Below, piece by piece: positions 978-19,470 of a DNA stretch of 19,476 bases. The notes beneath the pieces are model-generated. The model searched no databases. It was not told the DNA's origin and saw only the letters and a list, made by a program, of their open reading frames with translations. A program made the position numbers and the translations under genes. Position 1 is the first letter of the stretch. Every line of letters starts with the position of its first letter. Source of the DNA: Myxococcota bacterium (GTDB taxonomy: Bacteria; Myxococcota_A; UBA796; GCA-2862545); assembly GCA_039208735.1 (NCBI GenBank), contig JBCCQY010000175.1, positions 1-19,476 of the forward strand. Direction: 5' to 3'.

Positions 978-1031
978 CTGCACGATTGTTCTCCGACACG
1001 TTTGTTTGGCAAACGCTTGTCCAGTGTCGGA
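978..1031 (+). promoter_or_regulatory. Putative LexA operator array (Myxococcus-type SOS boxes) upstream of lexA
   Basis: ACGnTTGTYY occurs at 982-991, 998-1007 and 1013-1022. It matches the core of the M. xanthus LexA consensus CTRHAMRYBYGTTCAGS with mismatches and lies directly 5' of lexA. Confidence 0.6.
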
Positions 1032-1051
1032 CCATCCGAGTGAGGCTTTCG

Positions 1052-1690
1052 TTGGAAGATCTGTCGCCCCGTCAGCGGGAAATGTTGAACTTCATCGTGT
1101 CGGCTGTCGAGCAGACGGGCATCGTGCCGACCTACCGCGAGATCGGAGCGGGTCTCGGCATTGGGTCGACCAACGCGGTGAGTGACCATATCAAGGCCCT
1201 GGTTCGCAAAGGCTATGTCGAGCGGGTCGGCAAACCTGGGCGCCCACGCAGTTTGCGACTGACCGAAGCTGCCACGGGGTTCATCGAGCAAACGACGATT
1301 GCGTCCATCCCGATTCTCGGGCGCATCGCAGCCGGCGTGCCATTGCTCGCTGAAGAAAACTACGAGGGTACGGTTCGGGTCGACCGGAGCATGCTGCCTC
1401 CGGGGGGCAAGGTGTTCGCCTTGTTGGTCACTGGCGATTCCATGATCGAAGATGGCATCTTCGATGGCGATACGCTGTTCGTGCGTCAGAAAAACGAAGC
1501 GCGAGATGGGGAAATCACGGTGGTGATGGTCGACGGTGAAGCCACTGTCAAGCGTCTGTATCGTGAAGGCGAGCGGCTACGGTTGCAGCCCGGCAACTCC
1601 GCGATGGACCCCATCTTCGTCGATGCCGCCAGCGGTGATGTCGATGTCATCGGGGTGGCGGTTGGGGTCTACCGACGAATCCAGCTGTAG
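1052..1690 (+). CDS. lexA: SOS response repressor LexA
   Basis: wHTH N-terminus (LSPRQREML...PTYREIG...STNAVSDHIKALVRKGY), Ala-Gly cleavage site (GRIAAGVP), catalytic Ser (GDSM) and Lys (TVKR). Start placed at TTG 1052 after GAGG; 212 aa. Confidence 0.97.
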   Translation: MEDLSPRQREMLNFIVSAVEQTGIVPTYREIGAGLGIGSTNAVSDHIKALVRKGYVERVGKPGRPRSLRLTEAATGFIEQTTIASIPILGRIAAGVPLLAEENYEGTVRVDRSMLPPGGKVFALLVTGDSMIEDGIFDGDTLFVRQKNEARDGEITVVMVDGEATVKRLYREGERLRLQPGNSAMDPIFVDAASGDVDVIGVAVGVYRRIQL

Positions 1691-1697
1691 AGATTGT

Positions 1698-3515
1698 CTA
1701 TTCAGGAGGCGGCAGCGGAAGGAATTCGTTCAGGGCGGGCGGAATGACGTTGGGGTCGCGGTAGGTGATGCGCGCCCGAATGACCTTTATGCCTCGGCCC
1801 GACTGTGTGGTCTCCACGACGGCTCGAACGTTGAGGCCTTCGATTTGACTGGGGTTCGCGTCGCGGACCCCTGTGCCCACGAACGAGTAGTTCATCTTGA
1901 ACAGTCGTTGAGGCTCGTCCGCACAGCCGGAGTCCTCGACTTCGAGGAAGGTGAAGGGGAAGAACGTCTCCCATCCTTCGCTGCTGAAATCTTCCACCTT
2001 GACGCGAATCTCGGCACAGCCGGGAGGGTCGAACCGATACTGTCCCGCGGCCAGCAGGTCGTAGGTTGCCGAGCGGGGGGCGGGGCGGGTGTTTGAGTCG
2101 AGTTCGATGAGCTGACGAGGCTCCTTCGCCACCTCTCTTCGATCGGGAAGGGGGTTCGTGACATCGATGCCGAAGTCCGATGAGGCGGCCTCGAGCTTCA
2201 CCCCACCGCGATGCGGACCCGGATCGACACGAAGGTGGGCGAGCTGCGTGGCGCGGACCCCAGGGAGGAAGAGCCCGTCGGGGTTGCCGCCGAAGAACGT
2301 CGTGAGATCGTCGAGGAGTGCTTGGCGGCCCGCTTCCGAGGTGGCGAACGCCACGGGGCGCCCCCGCAACCCATCGAGGCGAACCTGATTGATGCAGCCT
2401 CGCGACATCTTTTGGACCGTGCCATCGCTCAAGAGGACCTGAGCCGTGAGTTCGGCGGGAAAGGCCGTCTCACAAATGACGTAGTGAACGGCTGACGTGA
2501 TACCGCGATCTACGAGAAAGCTGCCCAAATTGATGGGATCGCCAAGCGTGAACCGACCCACGTTCAGGGGCGAATCGGTGTCCCATTCGATCGAAGAGGG
2601 CTCTTCCTCGTCCTTGGGGTCCTCTTCCGCGTGCTCTTCCGCTTCACCCATTCCACCCAAGAGCGAGGTCTTTTCGCCCTGGTAGAAGACGACGATCCCG
2701 TCTTCGGAGAAGATCTCGTAGGTGCCGGTGCGACCCGACATGGTCCAGTTCGTGCCGTTGCAGAAGACTTCGGGGAAGAATTCTCCACGGACTTGGTTCT
2801 GGGAAAAACTACTGGGGAACGAGCACTTCGAGGGAAATTCGCCCAGAACCTTCCAGTCGTCGAGCGACTCACCGAAGGTCACGACGGCTTCTCCCTTGCC
2901 GCGAAGCACGAGCCAAAGCTCGGATACGCCGTTCTTGTCGTAGTCGGAGACTTCCTTGATGCTCACGTCAGGGACGGAGAGCCCTCGCTCGCGAAGGAAC
3001 GACGTGGGCACATCGACACAGCTGGTCCGTTCGGTGCCCATGTCGATGCGTTCAGCCCTTCGGGGCACGAGGCACGGGGCGCCGCCCCGGGTCGAGACGG
3101 CGGCCATGCCCACGAACACGAGAAACGCGAACAACAACATGCCGGCCGAGATGGCGGCGACGACCTGCATCCACGGTTGTACCCGATTGGAGGGCACGAT
3201 CTCGAGGGTCGTGCTGCCGAATCGGAGGACCGTCCCTACGCCGATGGGCCGGGACTCCCCCTTGATGCACTCTTCATCGACCCACGTCCCGGTCGCGGAC
3301 TCGAGATCTTCGATCACGTAGCCGCGGCGTATGTTGTAGCTGATTCGCGCGTGGTGGATGCTCACGAGCGGATCAGGAATTTGCAGGCCTTGGGAAGCCC
3401 GCCCAATGGGCAACGGACGGTCGGGGGGAACCGGAAACTCGGTCCCCGCATCGATGTCACCGTCGATCGCGATCAGCACGATCTGCTTTTGAGGGGGCAG
3501 CGGTGAAGAATTCAT
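1698..3515 (-). CDS. FHA domain-containing single-pass membrane protein with large C-terminal extracytoplasmic region
   Basis: N-terminal FHA motifs (IGR...DPLVSIHHARI...IEDLESATGTWVD...LRFGST), one hydrophobic helix (VVAAISAGMLLFAFLVFVGMAAV), then ~460 aa with several Cys; 605 aa. Confidence 0.85.
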   Translation of the reverse strand: MNSSPLPPQKQIVLIAIDGDIDAGTEFPVPPDRPLPIGRASQGLQIPDPLVSIHHARISYNIRRGYVIEDLESATGTWVDEECIKGESRPIGVGTVLRFGSTTLEIVPSNRVQPWMQVVAAISAGMLLFAFLVFVGMAAVSTRGGAPCLVPRRAERIDMGTERTSCVDVPTSFLRERGLSVPDVSIKEVSDYDKNGVSELWLVLRGKGEAVVTFGESLDDWKVLGEFPSKCSFPSSFSQNQVRGEFFPEVFCNGTNWTMSGRTGTYEIFSEDGIVVFYQGEKTSLLGGMGEAEEHAEEDPKDEEEPSSIEWDTDSPLNVGRFTLGDPINLGSFLVDRGITSAVHYVICETAFPAELTAQVLLSDGTVQKMSRGCINQVRLDGLRGRPVAFATSEAGRQALLDDLTTFFGGNPDGLFLPGVRATQLAHLRVDPGPHRGGVKLEAASSDFGIDVTNPLPDRREVAKEPRQLIELDSNTRPAPRSATYDLLAAGQYRFDPPGCAEIRVKVEDFSSEGWETFFPFTFLEVEDSGCADEPQRLFKMNYSFVGTGVRDANPSQIEGLNVRAVVETTQSGRGIKVIRARITYRDPNVIPPALNEFLPLPPPE

Positions 3516-4533: not shown

Positions 4534-5157
4534 ATGACCAAACACCTTTCCGAAGCCGAGCGCCGCAGCCAGATCCTTCGCGCCGCACGCGGGGTGTTCA
4601 TCGAAAAGGGGTACCTCGCCGCCCGGGTCGATGACGTCGCCAAGCGCGCTGGACTCTCGAAGGGTGCGGTCTACTTCTACTTTGCCTCAAAACGCGACCT
4701 GTTTTTGGCCTTGGTTCAGGAAGAACACGAGGCAACCTACAGTTTCCTTGAAGAGGCCGAAGAAGATGCGCGTCCCGCTAGTGTGAAGCTCATCGATCTT
4801 GGCCAGAAGTACCTCGACTATTTCGCGGGGTTGAAGTCTCCTCCTCGATTCTTTCTGATGATGCGGGAACAGGGAATCCGCGACGATGAGATTCGGGAGG
4901 AGTGTCAAGCGGTTCACGAACGCTTCGTGGACGCCGCCGCGCGGATCCTTGCGGAAGGAATGGCCGAGGGATCGTTTCGGGAAGCGGACCCCCACACTCT
5001 TGCTCAGATGCTCAAGGCGATGATCGACGGATTGGCGGGTCAAAGCGCCATCGGCCTTCGTCCCGACAAAGATCGACTCGTTTCCGACGGACTTCAGATG
5101 TTGTTGCACGGCATCCTTGCCGATCCTCCTGCACGTCGCGCCGAGGCCACGGGTTGA
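4534..5157 (+). CDS. TetR/AcrR family transcriptional regulator
   Basis: HTH: RRSQILRAARGVFIEKGY...VDDVAKRAGLSKGAVYFYFASKRDLF; helical C-terminal domain; 207 aa. Confidence 0.96.
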   Translation: MTKHLSEAERRSQILRAARGVFIEKGYLAARVDDVAKRAGLSKGAVYFYFASKRDLFLALVQEEHEATYSFLEEAEEDARPASVKLIDLGQKYLDYFAGLKSPPRFFLMMREQGIRDDEIREECQAVHERFVDAAARILAEGMAEGSFREADPHTLAQMLKAMIDGLAGQSAIGLRPDKDRLVSDGLQMLLHGILADPPARRAEATG

Positions 5158-6777: not shown

Positions 6778-10475
<3,698 letters not shown>

Positions 10476-10510
10476 AGCTGTACGTCCGAGGTCGAGCGCC
10501 TTTCACCCGA

Positions 10511-10821
10511 CGCGTGGATTTGCGGAACTCCTGGCACCCTACGCGAACCCATCAGGGCTTTTTCGTTCACGAAGCGAGCGAAGGAACTCGGATGGGCGAT
10601 GGATCGTGGAATCGGGCTGGCCGTTGGTGTGTCTCACTTGCAGATCCAACACACGGCTGGCGTGTTGTCGGATCGCACTTGGAAGCGTCGGCAGGACCAT
10701 GATCGCATTGGTGAGATCCACATCTGGGGGACCGACGCATCAAGACGGGATCCCGTTCGGACCTCTGCAGGCAAGCGATTACGTTGATAGCGAGGCGACC
10801 GCGAACGCGGCTTCGTGCCTC
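10511..10821 (+). other. Structured intergenic region / putative 5' leader of the rho homologue
   Basis: Several hand-identified stems: 10511-17/10539-45, 10548-53/10591-96, 10616-24/10653-61, 10685-91/10732-38 and 10792-96/10817-21, plus palindrome ACGGGATCCCGT at 10745-56. No known RNA family recognised. Confidence 0.35.
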
Positions 10822-10835
10822 CCCGGATTGCTTTG

Positions 10836-12077
10836 ATGCCCGTTGACTTTCCTGAGCTGCATGAACGTTCGACTGCCGAGCTGCGCCAACAGGCGAAACA
10901 ACTTGGCATGGAGCGTGTGGCTGACCTGCATAAGCTCGAATTGGTCTTCGCCATTGGGCAGCGGCTCGGTGAGCGGGAAGGGCAGGACTACGGTCGAGGC
11001 GTGCTTGAGGTGCACGCCGAAGGGTTTGGATTCCTTCGGGCGGCGGACGACAATTTTCTCCCCGGCCCGGGCGACATCTATGTGTCGCAAAGCCAGATTC
11101 GCCGGTTCAAGCTGCAGACAGGCGATACCGTAATTGGCCTGGTGCGGCCTCCAAAAGAGGGAGAGCGCTACACCGCCTTATTGCGGGTGGAAAGCGTGAA
11201 CGGAGAGCCCCCGGGAACGGTGGGTCCCACCTTCGATTCGCTCACCGCGATCTATCCGGACGAACGCATTGCGTTGGGCCGGGAACCCTACCTGCGCGCC
11301 ATCGACTTGGCTGCGCCGATCGGCCTCGGTCAGCGCGGGATTGTGGTGGCGCCGGCGCGTACGGGACAAGCCGATCTGCTGCGGCAGTTGGCGCATGTCT
11401 TTGCGAGCGACGAGGAGCTTCACGTCACGGTGCTGCTCTTGGGCGAACGACCCGAAGAGATCCGGGATTGGCGCGAATCCTGTCGGGCCGAGATCATTGC
11501 GACACCCTTTGATGAGCTGCCGTCTCGGCACGTTCAAGTGGCCGACATCGTCTTTGAACGAGCGCGGCGCATGGTTGAACGAGGCGACGATGCGGTGGTC
11601 CTCGTGGACAGCTTCTCGCGGATGCTTCGCTTCTGCCTGGCCGAGACTCCGCCTTCGGGGCGGACCATTGGTGGGGTTGACACTGCTGCGCTGCATCGGA
11701 TTCGGCGCTACCTTGGTGCGGCGCGGGCCCTCGAAGAGGGCGGGTCGCTCACGATGCTCGGAGTTTTGCAGGACGATGACTCGGAGATGAGTCGGGCCCT
11801 CCTCGACGACGTTCGTGACGGAGTGAACTGGGAACTGACGCTCACCCGGGACATCGCAGCCCGAGGTATTCGTCCGCCCATCGACCTGCATCGCTCAGGG
11901 ACCCGTCGCGAAGAACGCCTCATTGGAGCTGCTGAAGCAGAGACCCGTGACACTTGGCGCCTCGGATTGACGGGAGACCGCGTTTCCGATGCGGAGCGTC
12001 TCGTTGAACTCGCCAAGGCGGAGCCTCTCGAGCGTGCGTCCAAGAGTCGCAAGGCGAAAGGCCGCGCCGTCAAGTAG
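10836..12077 (+). CDS. rho: Transcription termination factor Rho homologue with degenerate ATPase motifs
   Basis: Rho N-terminal helical bundle, RNA-binding OB domain (GVLEV..EGFGFLR, DIYVSQSQIRRFKL.TGD, RPPKEGERY.ALL), PIGLGQRG, ERPEE, GAARALEEGGSLT and SGTRREE. Walker A reads APARTGQA. Start ATG 10836 (alternative GTG 10815); 413 aa. Confidence 0.93.
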   Translation: MPVDFPELHERSTAELRQQAKQLGMERVADLHKLELVFAIGQRLGEREGQDYGRGVLEVHAEGFGFLRAADDNFLPGPGDIYVSQSQIRRFKLQTGDTVIGLVRPPKEGERYTALLRVESVNGEPPGTVGPTFDSLTAIYPDERIALGREPYLRAIDLAAPIGLGQRGIVVAPARTGQADLLRQLAHVFASDEELHVTVLLLGERPEEIRDWRESCRAEIIATPFDELPSRHVQVADIVFERARRMVERGDDAVVLVDSFSRMLRFCLAETPPSGRTIGGVDTAALHRIRRYLGAARALEEGGSLTMLGVLQDDDSEMSRALLDDVRDGVNWELTLTRDIAARGIRPPIDLHRSGTRREERLIGAAEAETRDTWRLGLTGDRVSDAERLVELAKAEPLERASKSRKAKGRAVK

Positions 12078-12142
12078 GCGGGCGACTGGCTCCATGAACG
12101 GCTAGGCTGGCAAGGGTCTTGTCCCCCCAGGAGGAACCAAAC

Positions 12143-13066
12143 ATGCGCGCAGTCGCCGCGTTGATCGTCGGCAGCGTCCTAACGGGATGCAGCTCGATCG
12201 GTACGCTCGAGTTCACCGACGACAACAACTACGCTTACATGAGCAACATCGGCATTCAGTCCATTCCGATTGCTGCGGGCCAGAATCCATGCTTCGACTG
12301 GTCGGGACTCACCACCGACATTCGAGGTCGGGCGTTCGATGGCGTGGTCGACGAGGCGTACTTCACCCTCATGGAGCAGTCTCAGGAAGAGACCGTCGCG
12401 AGCTTCGAGGACAACACGTTCATCCAGGCCGACGTGAAGGAGCCGTTCGCGGACAATCCGCCGGACGAGGCTCGTGATGGGTGTGGCGAGGACTTCAGCG
12501 TCATCGGCAACGACTTCATGGCCGAGGACTTTGAGGCGGGTGGCGATTGGCTCATCACGCTGATGAAGTTCCGCGACTCGCCCGCCGGCGGTCTCGATCC
12601 GATCATGAGCCTGTTCGTGGTGCCGGATGACACGGTCGAAACGACGACGGTGTCGGTGTCGGATGACAGCATGGATCTCGAGATCACAGGCCTCGACATT
12701 GCAGGCGCCCCGCGGATTGCCGTGAGCACGGGCACCAATCGGGCAGATTGGACCGCCGTGACGGTCGACGTGTACGGCAACAACTACTCGAATCAGGACG
12801 GCAACGACCTGTTCATCGCGCGGTTCGACGTCGAGAGCGTCGAGGAGATCGAGGCCACGTTCCTGACGCTCGACACTTCGGCAGCCGAGATCTACCGCCG
12901 TGAGGTGTTCGGCTTCAACACGCTTGAGGATCTCTCCTCGGCGGTGTCGACGACGGGCGAGAACTTCCCCGGATTCACGACCGAAGGCATCTGGGTGTTC
13001 GGCATCGCCTGCTCGATCTGCAACAATCCGGCCCCCTTGCTCCTCAGCGTGCTCGAGGTGCAATAG
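12143..13066 (+). CDS. Acidic lipoprotein of unknown function
   Basis: Strong RBS AGGAGG at 12129-12134 and lipobox MRAVAALIVGSVLTG-C. Very D/E-rich mature region with C-terminal CSICNNPAP; 307 aa. Confidence 0.88.
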   Translation: MRAVAALIVGSVLTGCSSIGTLEFTDDNNYAYMSNIGIQSIPIAAGQNPCFDWSGLTTDIRGRAFDGVVDEAYFTLMEQSQEETVASFEDNTFIQADVKEPFADNPPDEARDGCGEDFSVIGNDFMAEDFEAGGDWLITLMKFRDSPAGGLDPIMSLFVVPDDTVETTTVSVSDDSMDLEITGLDIAGAPRIAVSTGTNRADWTAVTVDVYGNNYSNQDGNDLFIARFDVESVEEIEATFLTLDTSAAEIYRREVFGFNTLEDLSSAVSTTGENFPGFTTEGIWVFGIACSICNNPAPLLLSVLEVQ

Positions 13067-13204
13067 AGGGTTTTTGAACCCCTGCGATCCTCCGATTGCG
13101 GCCGCCGGCTTGACGCTGGTGGCTCGCCACGTCATGGTTGCGGGTCGACCGGGCTGGTCCCCCATCTTCGGATGGCGTGTGGATGCCCGAAGGAGTCCCT
13201 GTTC

Positions 13205-13537
13205 ATGAAGGCCGACATCCATCCGGAGTACCGTTTTGTCGTGTTCCGCGACATCAACAACGGTGACGAATTCATCACCCGTTCCTGCGCCTCGGCTCGC
13301 GACACGACCGAGATCAATGGCGAGGAATATCCGCTGATTGTCCTCGATGTTTCGAGCACGTCGCACCCCTTCTACACCGGTACCCAGCGCATCATGGATA
13401 CCGAAGGTCGTGTCGAGCGCTTCATGCGCAAGTACGGCTTCAAGGGCGACGAAGACGCCGAAGCACCGGCCTCGGATGACGCAGCGGCAGAGACCCCTGC
13501 CGCCCCCGAGGCGCCCGAGGGGTCGGCCGAAGGCTGA
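13205..13537 (+). CDS. rpmE2: 50S ribosomal protein L31 type B (Zn-independent)
   Basis: [16 protein letters not shown]...[31 protein letters not shown]; no CxC/CxxC; RBS AAGGAG; acidic Ala-rich tail. Confidence 0.96.
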
Positions 13538-13540
13538 GCC

Positions 13541-14643
<1,103 letters not shown>

Positions 14644-14647
<4 letters not shown>

Positions 14648-15501
14648 TTCGACTCGTCGACGTCTTGATGCGCACGGAAACTTGGTTTCGGCGCAAGGGC
14701 ATCGCTTCGCCCCGTTTGGAGGCCGAGCTGCTGCTGGGCCATGTATTGGGGGTCAAGCGTCTGCAGCTCTACCTCATGCACGACCGACCGTTGGGCGAAG
14801 GGGAACTCGAAAAGCTGCGGCCATTGGTCCAGCGTCGAGGAAGTCGTGAACCGCTTTCGTGGATTCTTGGACACCGCGAATTTCATGCGATTGACCTCGA
14901 GATCCGACCTGGGGTGCTCGATCCTCGTCCCGACACCGAGACCCTTGTGGACGCCGTGCTTGCCAAGATCCCAGAGCAACGAGAAGAGCCTGTGTACGTG
15001 GCCGACATCGGGTGTGGGTCGGGGGCGATTGGGCTCGCCTTGGCCCACGCGCGACCCTGTGTGAGGCTCTACGCGGTGGACGTTGATGAAACGGCCCTTG
15101 CCCTGACCAAGGCGAACATCGAACGGCTCGGGCTGTCGCAGCGGGCCGGGGTGCTGCGGGGCGATCTTCTCGATGCGGTTCCCGTGAAGCGACCGGTGGA
15201 CTGGGTGGTCAGCAATCCGCCTTACATCCCGACAGGTGAGATTGACGGCTTGATGCCGGAGGTCGCGCAGCACGAGCCACGTCGGGCCCTCGATGGGGGG
15301 CGAGACGGGCTGGATGTGTACCGGCGTCTCGTGCCGATGGCGGGAGCCCGGGCGCGGGTGGGACTGGCCGTCGAGGTCGGTCACGACCAAGCGGCCCGCG
15401 TGATGGACCTCTTTCGACGAAGTGGCCTTCAAGAACTGCAAACCGCAGCCGACCTCGGTGGCATTGACCGCGTCGTCCTGGGTCGCGTAGCGTCGTCCTG
15501 A
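14644..15501 (+). CDS. prmC: Release factor glutamine methyltransferase (HemK/PrmC)
   Basis: [12 protein letters not shown] motif [16 protein letters not shown] and [18 protein letters not shown] overlap with prfA. Confidence 0.97.
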
Positions 15502-15584: not shown

Positions 15585-17240
15585 ATGTCCGTTCGTTCGC
15601 TCTTGATGGGGCTCGCTGTGGCGGCGTTGGCCGGTTGTGTCGGTGGCACGCCTCAGCCGACAAGCACGCCTGCCAAGACGCGCGACACCCTGGTCGCAGC
15701 GACGCTCGCCGACGCCAACACCATGCTGCCCATCGTCGTCGAGACAGCGTTCACGGACGAAGTCCTGACCAACATGACGCTGCCCATGGTTCAGACCGAG
15801 TTCGATTGCTCGCTCAAGAAGAAGCCCGGCTACGCCACATCTTGGGAGTGGAACGACGACGGAACGGTCATCCGCATGAAACTGCGCGACGATCTCACGT
15901 GGGAAGACGGCACGCCGGTCAGCGTCGAAGACATCCAGTTCACGTATGAACTCATCGCCGATCCGGACGTCCAGAGCCCGCGGTTTGCCTTCATTGAGCG
16001 CCTGAAGCCCGACGCGCGGCCCAAGAAGATCGATGCCACGACCATCGAGTGGCATTTCACCGAGGCGTACGATCGCGACACGCAGATTGCCCACGTTTCG
16101 CTCGGCTTGGTGCCGAAGCACCGGCTTGAGGGGGCAGACCGCGGCTCGCTTCGGAGCCACCCCCTGGCCAATGAGCCTCTGTCGTATGGACCCTTCAAGG
16201 TCGCGAAATGGGAACGCAACGAACGCCTCGTCCTCGAACCCAACCCAAACTTCCCCGGTACTGATTCGGACAAGGCGAAGTTGAACCGGGTGATTTTCCG
16301 GATCATCCCCGAGTACTCCACCCGCCTCATCGAACTCGAGGCCGGCAGCATCGACATGATGTCGGGCCTCCTCCTGGAAGATGCCGATCGTCTGCGCAAG
16401 TCGCACCCAGAAATCCAGCTCGTTCGCCGTGGTTGGCGGACGCAGGACTACATCGGGTGGAACCTCAAGGACCCGCTGTTTGCGGATCTGCGGGTTCGCA
16501 AGGCTCTGGCCTATGGAGCCGATGTCGATGCGATGATCGCACGCCTGCTCACGAGCGAAACCGGTGAGAAATATGCCAAGCGTGCGGTGAGCACGCTGAC
16601 ACCCGCCCTCTGCGGCATCGTTCCCGACGTCAAGCCCATTCCAACGGATCAGGCCAAGGCGAAGGCGCTATTTGCCGAGGCCGGATGGTCGGATTCCGAC
16701 GGAGATGGCGTGCTCGACAAGGGCGGCAAGAAGTTCTCGTTCACGCTGTCGACGAACACGGGCAACAAGCGTCGGGCCGACATCGCGGTGCTGCTGCAGG
16801 CCCAGCTGAAGGAGATTGGGGTCGAGGTCAACATCGAGAAACTCGAGTCCAACACCTTCTTCGAGCGACTGCGTAAGCACGACTTCCAGGCCGGATTGGC
16901 AGGTTGGGCCGCGGGCCTCTTTGTTGACCCGTCCTCGATGTGGCTGTGTTCGACCGACGAGGAACCGCGAGAGTTCAACTTCACCCAGTACTGCAATCCC
17001 GAAGTCGACGAACTCATCAAGACGGGCCTGAAGACGCCGAATCCGGCCGAAGCGGCACCGATTTGGAAAGACATGCAGGCGAAGATCTTCGAGGATCAGC
17101 CTTACTTGTTCCTGTGGTGGATGGACGAGATTGTGGCCATCCACGATCGGTTCGAGAACATCTCTCCCGACATTCTCTCGCGCTTCCATCGCTTGGAGAA
17201 CTGGGACGTCCCGCCGGACAAGGTCAAGTACCGCCGGTAG
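15585..17240 (+). CDS. Peptide/nickel ABC transporter substrate-binding lipoprotein (family 5)
   Basis: Lipobox LAGC; ATSWEW...KLRDDLTWEDGTPVSVEDIQFTY; GPFKV; PLFADLRVRKAL; NFTQYCNPEVDELI. Confidence 0.95.
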   Translation: MSVRSLLMGLAVAALAGCVGGTPQPTSTPAKTRDTLVAATLADANTMLPIVVETAFTDEVLTNMTLPMVQTEFDCSLKKKPGYATSWEWNDDGTVIRMKLRDDLTWEDGTPVSVEDIQFTYELIADPDVQSPRFAFIERLKPDARPKKIDATTIEWHFTEAYDRDTQIAHVSLGLVPKHRLEGADRGSLRSHPLANEPLSYGPFKVAKWERNERLVLEPNPNFPGTDSDKAKLNRVIFRIIPEYSTRLIELEAGSIDMMSGLLLEDADRLRKSHPEIQLVRRGWRTQDYIGWNLKDPLFADLRVRKALAYGADVDAMIARLLTSETGEKYAKRAVSTLTPALCGIVPDVKPIPTDQAKAKALFAEAGWSDSDGDGVLDKGGKKFSFTLSTNTGNKRRADIAVLLQAQLKEIGVEVNIEKLESNTFFERLRKHDFQAGLAGWAAGLFVDPSSMWLCSTDEEPREFNFTQYCNPEVDELIKTGLKTPNPAEAAPIWKDMQAKIFEDQPYLFLWWMDEIVAIHDRFENISPDILSRFHRLENWDVPPDKVKYRR

Positions 17241-17276
17241 GCGCTCCCCCTCTGCTCTGAAAAAGGACGCGTCCCC

Positions 17277-18305
17277 ATGCTCCGCTATGTGGCCCGAAAG
17301 CTCTTGCTGGCGGTCCCGCTCGTCATCTGCATCGTCACGCTGATCTTCACGTTGGTGGAGCTGTCGCCCGGCGACATTTCGAGCAAGTACATCAATCCCG
17401 ACATGCCGCCTGAAGTGGCGCAGATGATCATCGACAAGTACCAGCTCGACCGTCCGGCGTACGTTCGGTACTTCGCGATGATGCGAAACCTGGCGATGTT
17501 CGACTTCGGCAATTCCATGGCCGAAGACGTGCCGGTGTTCGAGATCATCCTTCGCTACTTACCGAACACCATCTTGCTGTCGTTCGTCACGTTGCTCGTG
17601 GCATATCCGATGGGTGTGCTGCTCGGGACCATCCAGGCCGTGCGTCAGAACCAGGCCATCGACACCGGGGTGAGCGTCACGAGCCTGCTCCTCTACTCGA
17701 TGCCCTCGTTCTGGCTTGCCTTGATGCTGCAGCTGCTGTTCGGCATCTACTGGACAGGATGGCTGCAGGGCCTCGTCCAAGCTGGGTCATTGTCTGCGGC
17801 TTCGGCAGATTTTCTGTCGCTTCCGTTATCGGGCATGAAAGATCCCATCCTCTACGACATGCTGTCGCCGGGTGAGCAACTCCTCGACCGGTTCAAACAC
17901 CTGCTCCTGCCGGGGTTTGCGATGGGACTCGCGGCGGCCGCGTCGAGCGCTCGGTACATGCGCTCGTCCCTGCTCGAGGTCATCCGCCAGGACTACATCC
18001 GAACCGCTCGTGCGAAAGGCTTGCCCGAACGACTGGTCATCATCAAGCATGGGCTTCGCAATGCTCTTTTGCCCATCGTGACCTTACTCGGGCTGTCGTT
18101 GCCCTACTTGTTTTCGGGCAGCGTCCTGGTCGAGATGGTGTTTTCTTGGCCCGGCATGGGCCGCATGATCGTGAACGCCATCTACTCCCAAGACACCCCG
18201 TTGATCATTGCGAGCTTCTTCATCTTCACGCTGCTCGTGGTGGCGGGGAACTTGATCGCAGACATTCTCTATGCGTGGGTCGACCCCCGCATTCGACTGG
18301 ACTGA
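17277..18305 (+). CDS. Peptide ABC transporter permease (OppB/DppB family)
   Basis: MLRYVARKLL...LSPGD; EAA loop QDYIRTARAKGL...KHGLRNALLP; VEMVFSWPGMG; DPRIR. Confidence 0.96.
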   Translation: MLRYVARKLLLAVPLVICIVTLIFTLVELSPGDISSKYINPDMPPEVAQMIIDKYQLDRPAYVRYFAMMRNLAMFDFGNSMAEDVPVFEIILRYLPNTILLSFVTLLVAYPMGVLLGTIQAVRQNQAIDTGVSVTSLLLYSMPSFWLALMLQLLFGIYWTGWLQGLVQAGSLSAASADFLSLPLSGMKDPILYDMLSPGEQLLDRFKHLLLPGFAMGLAAAASSARYMRSSLLEVIRQDYIRTARAKGLPERLVIIKHGLRNALLPIVTLLGLSLPYLFSGSVLVEMVFSWPGMGRMIVNAIYSQDTPLIIASFFIFTLLVVAGNLIADILYAWVDPRIRLD

Positions 18306-18309
18306 CCGC

Positions 18310-19470
18310 ATGACCGCCATCGTCAAGACCCGAGAGTTCACGGCGCCGCCACGCACCCGCGTGGGAATGGTGGTGCCTGGTCTTGGGCATTTCCTGATGG
18401 GCGAGTGGATCGTCGGCGGGGGCCTGCTGGCTCTCGATGCGTTGTGGCTTTTGGCCGCCGTTCGAGGACTGCCCCGTATCGGCTCGATGTTCTCGGGCCA
18501 GGAATGGCTGCACCCCGTCATCGCGCTCGTGTCGTTTGTTGGGCTCACCGCAGGATTGGGGTGGGCGGGGTACCGACGCGCGTACCCCCGAGCCCTGACC
18601 GAGGTGGAATACAACAGCAACCACCAGATTTTTCTGCGGACGCTGGGCCGACACCGGACCGGCATGATGGGGCTCTTCGGCGTCCTCTTCCTCGTCATGA
18701 TGACGCTCATGACACCGATGCTCGCTCCGTTTCCACCAGACATCACAGATGTGGGCGCGCCGAACCTGGCCCCCGATGCGGTCTATTGGTTTGGCACCGA
18801 CAAGTTCGGCCGGGACGTGTTTTCACGCCTCCTGTACGGCGGGCGAATCAGCCTTTCCATCGGTTTGGTGGCCGTGTTCCTCGCCGCCTCACTGGGCACG
18901 TCGCTTGGGGCCACCGCGGGATTCCTCGGTGGTTGGCCCGATCGCTTCATCATGTTCATCACCGATCTGCTCCTGTCGATGCCCCGTCTCGTCCTGCTCC
19001 TCACCATTGTGGGGCTCTACCGGTTGCCGGGGGTTTGGGGCATTTTCCTCATCGTGGTGATTTTGGGTCTCACCGCCTGGATGGCCATTGCGCGCCTGGT
19101 TCGGGGCGAGGTCCTTTCGCTCCGGCAGCGCGAGTTCATCCAGGCCGCACAGGCCCTGGGGTACTCCCAGACCCGTCTGCTGTTCGGCCATCTGATTCCC
19201 AATGCGCTTGCACCGGTCATCGTGTTCTGCTCGCTGGCGATGGGTGCGACGATGCTGGCCGAAGCCGGCCTTTCGTTCCTTGGCCTCGGGGTGCCAGAAC
19301 CCACGTCGACGTGGGGGACCATGGTGAGCGATGGCCGTGATTACTTGCGCCATTCCCCTTGGGTGTCCATCTTTCCGGGGTTAGCGATCATGATGGCGGT
19401 GCTGTCGTTCAACCTTCTTGGTGATGGACTGCGCGACGCCACCGATCCGAAGCTCCGAGGTACCGATTGA
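18310..19470 (+). CDS. Peptide ABC transporter permease (OppC/DppC family) with N-terminal membrane extension
   Basis: FGTDKFGRDVFSRLLYGGRISL; ARLVRGEVLSLRQREFIQAAQALG; EAGLSFLGLG; FNLLGDGLRDATDP. Start ATG 18310; 386 aa. Confidence 0.95.
   Translation: MTAIVKTREFTAPPRTRVGMVVPGLGHFLMGEWIVGGGLLALDALWLLAAVRGLPRIGSMFSGQEWLHPVIALVSFVGLTAGLGWAGYRRAYPRALTEVEYNSNHQIFLRTLGRHRTGMMGLFGVLFLVMMTLMTPMLAPFPPDITDVGAPNLAPDAVYWFGTDKFGRDVFSRLLYGGRISLSIGLVAVFLAASLGTSLGATAGFLGGWPDRFIMFITDLLLSMPRLVLLLTIVGLYRLPGVWGIFLIVVILGLTAWMAIARLVRGEVLSLRQREFIQAAQALGYSQTRLLFGHLIPNALAPVIVFCSLAMGATMLAEAGLSFLGLGVPEPTSTWGTMVSDGRDYLRHSPWVSIFPGLAIMMAVLSFNLLGDGLRDATDPKLRGTD

What the first reader, a model, noticed from the sequence alone, without database searches (positions are those of the whole stretch)
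10836..12077. Full-length Rho with an intact RNA-binding domain but a dead-looking ATPase (candidate pseudo-Rho regulator)
Seen: Walker A at 11349-11375 reads APARTGQAD (GGA CAA GCC GAT), whereas canonical Rho has APPK/RxGKT, so both the Lys and the Mg-binding Thr are lost. The near-invariant segment TGSKMDEVIYEEFKGTGN reads DDDSEMSRALLDDVRDGVN (~11770-11830). DSITRLARAYN is DSFSRMLRFCL, LIDERPEE is LLGERPEE, and the adenine-pocket FPAI is RPPI. The primary RNA-binding motifs (GFGFLR, DIYVSQSQIRRF, RPPKEGERY), GAAR..EEGGSLT and the arginine finger (SGTRREE) are retained, and the ORF has no stops or frameshifts. Known: Rho is a hexameric ATPase whose sites form in trans, with the Arg finger coming from the neighbouring subunit, and Walker A Lys substitutions strongly impair activity. 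Inference: loss concentrated in the cis ATP site and secondary RNA loop suggests a repurposed protein rather than random decay. It could be a rut-site competitor (antiterminator), or a subunit that poisons or tunes hetero-hexamers with an active Rho paralogue.
Basis: partly seen in the sequence, partly recalled or inferred. Interest (0 to 1): 0.85.

Follow-up and report, generated by a model that had tools for sequence, protein, structure and literature searches.

The report
Sole Rho without its ATP motor
This bacterium's only detectable copy of the transcription terminator Rho keeps its RNA-binding end but has replaced the core ATP-binding residues of its motor, as have most members of a whole uncultured bacterial order, so it is predicted not to burn ATP and likely works as a motor-less RNA- and polymerase-binding factor.

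Summary
Observation confirmed. The ORF (10836-12077, 413 aa) folds like Rho, keeps its primary RNA-binding residues, and reads GQA for Walker A GKT (6 of 11 catalytic residues kept). It is not a paralogue. It is the only rho found in this 93%-complete genome and sits at the ancestral ligA-rho-rpmE-prfA locus. In the order, 144 of 152 genomes have a rho match and none shows a second full copy. Only 12 of 106 examined keep GK[T/S], against 20 of 20 in sister orders. The RNA-binding domain evolves at the sister-order rate, the motor domain 6-13 times faster yet under purifying selection. No compensating U-tract terminators were found. Best reading (0.5): a motor-less Rho that binds nascent RNA and the elongation complex through its N-terminal face; untested. 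One relative lost the gene. A 2024 supplement notes a similar Rho in two Actinomycetota, and this scan found motor-dead Rho on other DNA before (unchecked notes). I found no paper on this order.

The parts
10836..12077 (+). rho orthologue with degenerate ATPase (413 aa)
   Evidence: model pLDDT 93, best structural match E. coli Rho 1pv4_B Z 43.5, rmsd 1.9 over 345 residues
10854..10979 (+). Rho N-terminal helix bundle (aa 7-48)
   Evidence: PF07498 E 1.2e-6
10995..11213 (+). OB-fold primary RNA-binding domain, intact, including the extended primary site
   Evidence: PF07497 E 5e-31; residue tables
11349..11375 (+). degenerate Walker A, APARTGQAD (K184>Q, T185>A)
11442..11459 (+). [quoted passage not shown]
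11598..11639 (+). Walker B region: D265 and R269 kept, Y274>C
11772..11828 (+). remodelled R-loop and following helix (K326>E, E334>D, K336>R, G337>D)
11871..11882 (+). adenine-pocket motif RPPI (F355>R)
11895..11915 (+). SGTRREE with arginine finger R366, kept here but variable in relatives
   Evidence: 22 of 44 in family f1
8295..10475 (+). ligA, upstream synteny marker (longest ORF; true start probably later)
12143..13066 (+). unknown ORF inserted between rho and rpmE; found only here and in G014 among the loci tested
   Evidence: no Pfam match
13205..13540 (+). rpmE (L31), downstream synteny marker
13541..14647 (+). prfA, synteny marker and rate control
14644..15501 (+). prmC, synteny marker

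Best explanation
This gene is the cell's own syntenic rho and the only one found; its ATP-binding and RNA-threading residues are replaced while its N-terminal RNA-binding face is conserved, so it is predicted to be ATPase-dead and likely works without a motor, gripping untranslated nascent RNA and docking on the NusA/NusG elongation complex. In that role it would stall or allosterically inactivate RNA polymerase and shield the RNA, leaving any final release to another motor such as Mfd. Shown: orthology, single copy, motif loss, fold, selection pattern. Inferred: no ATP hydrolysis (from general P-loop rules), RNA binding, ring assembly, polymerase docking, any effect on termination, and the hand-over to Mfd.
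For: Single copy at the ancestral locus. [quoted passage not shown] Of positions invariant in sister-order Rho, degenerate relatives keep 30 of 39 in the OB domain, 29 of 158 in the RecA core and 0 of 13 in the C-terminal helices. Extended primary-site residues (F62, Q85, R87, R88, F89, R102, K105) are kept in 92-98 of 98 degenerate rows; PMC10491184 states that this surface is a main contact to NusA/NusG elongation complexes (passages). PMC7819879 section 6 describes Rho inactivating polymerase while its ring is still open, with helicase activity needed only afterwards. The genome has NusA, NusG, an RpoB aligned without gaps across the SI2 insert (28 of 103 identical) and Mfd. OB rate relative to prfA is unchanged (0.48-0.84 against 0.64) while the core runs at 1.17-2.50 against 0.19. 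U-tract terminators have not taken over: 11 of 500 gene ends (shuffles 6) against 16 of 40 in an E. coli control.
Against: No biochemical or expression data. The same conserved surface binds RNA, so it cannot distinguish polymerase docking from plain RNA binding. In Thermus, RNA release needed ATP and N-terminal docking was judged non-productive (10.1101/2022.09.02.506315, part 1 of 4). U-tract terminators are equally rare in canonical sister orders (6 of 199), so their scarcity is a lineage trait, not a response. G033 (97% complete) has lost the gene cleanly, so the function is dispensable there. E211, R212, D265 and R269 are largely kept, and many relatives have Arg for Lys, which leaves room for nucleotide binding or weak turnover.
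Confidence: 0.5

Rival explanations
1. ATPase-dead RNA-binding protein acting after transcription (RNA chaperone, stabiliser or nuclease adaptor), uncoupled from RNA polymerase; termination is done by something not yet identified.
For: Only the RNA-binding domain is under unchanged constraint. The C-terminal helices, on the side that faces polymerase in the Thermus complex, keep 0 of 13 invariants. An RNase E/G gene is present.
Against: The kept surface coincides with the reported elongation-complex contact surface. No replacement terminator was found: U-tract hairpins are rare and RNase J does not track the trait.
Confidence: 0.2
2. Slow decline toward loss: Rho became non-essential at the base of the order, and the motor domain is kept only as a folding and assembly scaffold for a minor RNA-binding role.
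For: G033 has ligA and rpmE 166 nt apart with no Rho RNA-binding domain in the genome. 33 of 161 phylum genomes sampled have no match. Even intact-motif members of the order are only 64-69% identical to a sister Rho. dN/dS reaches 0.37-0.52 in family f4.
Against: 144 of 152 order genomes keep it. OB constraint is not relaxed. Family f1 fixed new near-invariant residues in the core, such as M219>W 46 of 46, M341>W 42 of 43 and E334>D 43 of 43.
Confidence: 0.13
3. Still a slow or atypical NTPase terminator, or a nucleotide sensor: Arg replaces Lys and the remaining catalytic residues suffice for weak turnover or binding.
For: E211, R212, D265, R269 are kept in 41-45 of 46 f1 rows; K184>R is the commonest change (37 of 46); families f3 and f6 keep 9 of 11 catalytic residues. 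M. tuberculosis Rho is essential despite poor NTPase activity (PMC8828861 abstract).
Against: This protein has Gln and Ala at K184 and T185. f1 rows keep 2-7 of 11 residues, K336 0 of 44, G337 0 of 44, F355 2 of 43; the R-loop is variable in length and sequence.
Confidence: 0.13
4. One reading: a poison or tuning subunit, or a rut-site competitor, for an active Rho paralogue.
For: Arg finger and catalytic Glu are present in this sequence. The genome is 92.7% complete, so a second gene could be unassembled. Earlier scan notes describe such pairs in other phyla (unchecked).
Against: No second full rho in 152 order genomes, including a one-contig and a two-contig assembly; the query detects second copies elsewhere. 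The gene occupies the orthologous locus. Arg finger 22 of 44 in f1.
Confidence: 0.03

Closest known systems
Canonical transcription termination factor Rho (E. coli; TIGR00767 / NF006886; PDB 1pv4, 3ice, 6xas)
   Same: Three-domain architecture, fold (Z 43.5, rmsd 1.9), primary RNA site, genomic locus, passes NF006886
   Different: Walker A Lys and Thr, K336, G337, F355 and the R-loop replaced; below the TIGR00767 cut-off; motor domain evolves 6-13 times faster than in sister orders
Rho-like proteins of Conexibacter woesei and Baekduia soli (Moreira et al. 2024, PMC11347177 supplement)
   Same: Species counted as lacking functional Rho that keep a full-length protein with conserved RNA-binding domains and a predicted non-functional motor
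   Different: Those lack the catalytic Glu and the Q- and R-loops; here the Glu is mostly kept and Walker A is the main lesion. Different phylum; relationship not tested, convergence presumed
Group B / short-form Rho paralogues (NF041509) and ATPase-only Rho-like proteins of Myxococcales (PMC11347177)
   Same: Divergent Rho homologues; the ATPase-only kind occurs in the same phylum sample
   Different: They keep the catalytic residues and are second copies; this one is a sole orthologue with the opposite lesion; score 260 against cut-off 628
Open-ring, elongation-complex-bound state of E. coli Rho (Said et al., seen only through PMC7819879 and PMC10491184)
   Same: Uses the N-terminal extended primary site, which is what is conserved here
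   Different: A transient state of an active ATPase; here it would be the permanent form. A works-like comparison, not membership

Membership tests
Canonical Rho terminator | N-terminal bundle + OB RNA-binding domain + RecA-type domain | tested here: met
Canonical Rho terminator | Primary RNA-binding residues | tested here: met
Canonical Rho terminator | Walker A GK[T/S] | tested here: not met
   GQA; 0 of 46 in the family
Canonical Rho terminator | Walker B Asp, catalytic Glu, Arg valve, Arg switch, Arg finger | tested here: met
   All five present in this protein; finger only 22 of 44 in the family
Canonical Rho terminator | Secondary RNA site and coupling helix (R-loop K326, K336, G337) and adenine pocket F355 | tested here: not met
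   K326>E, K336>R, G337>D, F355>R
Canonical Rho terminator | TIGR00767 curated cut-off | tested here: not met
   367 against 509; NF006886 is passed, 381 against 315
Canonical Rho terminator | Hexameric ring | tested here: inconclusive
   Not shown; see Tried and rejected
Canonical Rho terminator | RNA-dependent ATPase and termination activity | not testable with these tools
   needs biochemistry
rho orthologue (by descent) | Same locus as canonical rho of sister orders, single copy | tested here: met
   rpmE or prfA in the flank of 92 of 99 order loci and 14 of 15 sister loci with enough flank
Group B / short-form Rho paralogue (NF041509) | Second copy lacking the N-terminal domain, catalytic residues kept | tested here: not met
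   Has Rho_N, sole copy, score 260 against 628
Thermoleophilia/Rubrobacteria Rho-like proteins | Catalytic Glu replaced and Q-/R-loops absent | tested here: not met
   E211 kept, Q-loop present with a one-residue gap
Thermoleophilia/Rubrobacteria Rho-like proteins | Common ancestry with those proteins | not tested
   their sequences were not fetched
Pseudogene | Broken frame or neutral evolution | tested here: not met
   Open frame; same-genus dN/dS 0.03-0.15 in 9 of 9 family pairs

The most novel reading that the evidence does not exclude
An ATP-independent, factor-dependent transcription terminator: most of a bacterial order has replaced Rho's motor with a purely allosteric Rho that shuts down RNA polymerase by binding nascent RNA and NusA/NusG, and the order preserves a natural series (GKT, GRT, GRV, GQA, gene loss) that arose more than once.
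Probability: 0.25. Interest if true: 0.9.

Novelty: new variant of a known kind. Interest (0 to 1): 0.72.

Why it matters
Whether Rho terminates by ATP-driven translocation or by allosteric inactivation of polymerase is still argued. A sole Rho that kept only the N-terminal face gives a natural protein to test the allosteric route, with close intact-motif relatives as matched controls. It also leaves large (3-12 Mb) genomes with no predicted Rho motor and few U-tract terminators, so their termination mechanism is open. And these proteins pass an NCBI Rho model, so presence/absence surveys will count them as working Rho.

Tried and rejected
Second active Rho or ATPase-only partner: not found in the genome (the three weak tblastn hits carry GK[S/T] motifs of other RecA-type ATPases) or order. 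Assembly error: rejected. Intrinsic-terminator compensation: not seen (my own gene caller and detector, E. coli control only 40 ends; samples of 0.4-0.7 Mb for other groups). RNase J torpedo as replacement: present in G000 and 11 of 20 other f1 genomes but 0 of 37 in f2, f4-f7, and in 8 of 11 canonical f12 genomes; rejected as a general answer. Beta-CASP (FttA-like) family not found in G000. Homodimer prediction: no verdict, score 0.00, no evidence either way. No RNA holder listed. Tree-based omega could not be read from the codon runs; only tree lengths were used. Distant-pair dN/dS reached about 1.1; I attribute that to dS saturation and used same-genus pairs. The AU test of a single origin did not finish. 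Named-genome scan returned only 1 partial, weak locus, so the order was not named. Search for shorter homologues gave mostly partial sequences and was uninformative. No promoter-like site found at 10400-13600. The Said et al. paper was not held.

Full report
Observation. The ORF 10836-12077 encodes 413 aa without breaks. Pfam finds Rho_N, Rho_RNA_bind and the ATP-synthase-type nucleotide-binding domain. Mapped on E. coli Rho from NC_000913.3, Walker A reads GQA for GKT, and D210, Y274, K326, E334, K336, G337, R353 and F355 are replaced. E211, R212, D265, R269 and R366 are kept: 6 of an 11-residue catalytic set that I defined. Residue roles for E211, R212, R269, G337, K326, K184, T185, R353 and R366 come from passages read; K336 and F355 roles are recalled. 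The AlphaFold2 model (pLDDT 93) matches Rho best (Z 43.5, rmsd 1.9 over 345 residues).

Not an artefact. None of the 120 best homologues (62-100% identity, query included) has GK[T/S]; 104 have Arg at the Lys position and 93 have Val at the Thr position. A contig from a second study covers 11115-11571 without a listed change in the GQAD codons. The 15 listed in-frame differences that I assign to that run's four long contigs are all synonymous; a 16th (11139, non-synonymous) belongs to short divergent contigs, a few further differences on the long contigs were not listed, and depth is mostly under 5.

It is the orthologue and the only copy found. tblastn with this protein, E. coli Rho and a sister-order Rho, and family searches with PF07497 and PF07498, find one rho in G000 (92.7% complete). 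The gene lies in ligA-rho-(ORF)-rpmE-prfA-prmC. rpmE or prfA lies in the fetched flank of 92 of 99 order loci and 14 of 15 sister-order loci with at least 900 downstream bases. Searching 152 order genomes with a canonical sister Rho gave matches in 144: 137 with one, 7 with two partial matches on different contigs that look like halves of one gene (at most 11 candidates scored per genome, one match row not listed). The same query found the second, ATPase-only Rho-like gene in 15 of 15 genomes of family f17, and the two I extracted keep GKT, so the search can see such partners. G024 (one contig) and G009 (two contigs) have one Rho RNA-binding domain each. NCBI labels on homologues say Myxococcota, Myxococcales, Deltaproteobacteria or Alphaproteobacteria MAG; the tools gave no name for the order.

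Extent. I extracted Rho from 106 of the 144 order genomes with a match and from 20 sister-order genomes. GK[T/S] counts: f1 0 of 46, f2 9 of 13, f3 0 of 2, f4 0 of 7, f5 3 of 21, f6 0 of 11, f7 0 of 6, sisters 20 of 20. All 11 catalytic residues are present in 6 of 87 fully aligned order rows (all f2) and 15 of 16 sister rows. Families differ in their lesions: f3 and f6 keep 9 of 11, f1 mostly 5-6, f4 2-5. On a prfA tree of 51 rows the degenerate label needs 4 changes, at least 2 on well-supported branches, with intact f2 lineages interleaved among degenerate ones (quick search; one search agrees). Several origins are likely; the AU test did not finish. Two genomes outside the class (G243, G291) also have a single degenerate rho upstream of rpmE. 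G033 (97% complete, 2522 bases withheld) has ligA and rpmE 166 nt apart and no Rho domain found. G049 has rpmE at a contig start, so its blank may be a gap. 33 of 161 phylum genomes sampled have no rho match.

Selection. Of positions invariant in sister Rho, 100 degenerate rows (7 intact f2 rows and one mis-framed row left out) keep 30 of 39 in the OB domain, 29 of 158 in the RecA core and 0 of 13 in the C-terminal helices. Relative to prfA, the OB domain diverges at 0.48-0.84 (sisters 0.64) and the core at 1.17-2.50 (sisters 0.19, intact f2 0.37). Codon tree lengths show the same reversal (f1 core 39.9 against OB 22.5, 21 of the f1 rows; sisters 8.7 against 17.2). dN/dS of the core in 20 hand-picked same-genus degenerate pairs is 0.01-0.52 (19 with a value; f1 0.03-0.15) against 0.01-0.06 in 7 intact pairs. 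More distant pairs gave values up to about 1.1, which I attribute to dS saturation in GC-rich genes. The core is relaxed, not neutral, and f1 has fixed new residues (M219>W 46 of 46, M341>W 42 of 43, E334>D 43 of 43). The arginine finger is not among the kept residues (f1 22 of 44, f5 0 of 19).

Mechanism. Loss of both the Walker A Lys and the Mg-binding Thr predicts no productive ATP hydrolysis (passages; inference). What is kept is the core and extended primary site, which binds rut RNA and, per PMC10491184, is also the main contact with NusA/NusG elongation complexes. PMC7819879 describes polymerase inactivation by open-ring Rho before any helicase step, and PMC1950744 found primary-site contacts mandatory while some secondary-site mutants could be rescued, though with high ATP or NusG (abstract and section titles). 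G000 has NusA, NusG, the RpoB SI2 region and Mfd. I therefore favour a motor-less Rho acting on nascent RNA and the elongation complex (0.5). Against it: the Thermus structure paper found release ATP-dependent and N-terminal docking non-productive; the gene is lost in G033; ring formation, RNA binding and expression are not shown. Classical intrinsic terminators have not replaced Rho (G000 11 of 500 ends, shuffles 6; other degenerate 1 of 103; intact f2 3 of 132; sisters 6 of 199; E. coli 16 of 40), but they are as rare in sisters, so this only removes one alternative. RNase J does not follow the trait.

Comparison with what is known. By descent it is rho; as a functional family member it fails Walker A, the secondary site and the TIGR00767 cut-off while passing NF006886. 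Moreira et al. 2024 (PMC11347177; abstract, passages, sections 27, 32, part 1 of 5 of section 19, supplement parts 25-26 of 174 and a term search) call the ATPase domain highly conserved among functional Rho, list 12 Myxococcota, and note Rho-like proteins without catalytic Glu and Q/R loops in Conexibacter and Baekduia. That is a published precedent for the kind, in another phylum. The unread supplement tables and D'Heygere 2013 (not read) may hold more. Searches and 85 of an open-access library found no paper on motor-dead Rho in this lineage. Other papers seen: 10.1101/069559, 10.1101/2022.06.23.497301, PMC11829017, PMC8828861, PMC13323073, PMC10491184 (passages); PMC7819879 (passages, section 6); 10.1101/2022.09.02.506315 (part 1 of 4); PMC1950744 (abstract, outline). 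This scan's notes list motor-dead Rho in several other lineages; they are unchecked leads and suggest convergence, not support.

Verdict. Real, conserved and broader than reported: a new variant of a known kind. Interest 0.72, because an order-wide series of sole Rho proteins from intact to motor-less to deleted makes the allosteric-versus-motor question testable, tempered by the published and in-scan precedents and by the lack of functional data.

Noticed in passing
L220 / L222 (G033:C1): rho is cleanly absent: ligA stop and rpmE start are 166 nt apart, and no Rho RNA-binding domain is found in this 97%-complete family member.
   Followed up: yes
L132 (G243:C216) and L133 (G291:C77): Single, independently degenerate rho genes upstream of rpmE in two other families of the phylum (one GRT with altered R-loop helix; one GKS with the catalytic Glu position altered).
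   Followed up: partly
L134 (G268), L135 (G185): Family f17 carries a second, ATPase-only Rho-like gene with intact GKT in 15 of 15 genomes, the mirror image of this protein.
   Followed up: partly
phylum sample: Several families lack a rho match despite near-complete genomes (f23 0 of 10, f13 2 of 12, f33 1 of 6).
   Followed up: no
window 12143-13066 (+): 307-aa acidic ORF with a lipoprotein-like N-terminus (by eye) inserted between rho and rpmE; no Pfam or NCBIfam match; shared only with G014 among the loci tested.
   Followed up: partly
L216 (G000:C10:43556-44848): RNase J-like gene matching only profile positions 2-435 of 546, under the cut-off; similarly short in most f1 relatives, longer in several f12 genomes.
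   Followed up: no
window 986-1690 (+), 1698-3515 (-), 4534-5157 (+), 15585-19470 (+): LexA, an FHA-domain protein, a TetR regulator and an Opp/Dpp-type ABC transporter; ordinary neighbours.
   Followed up: no
genome-wide: Hairpin-plus-U-tract terminators are near chance level at gene ends across this class, in canonical-Rho orders too.
   Followed up: partly
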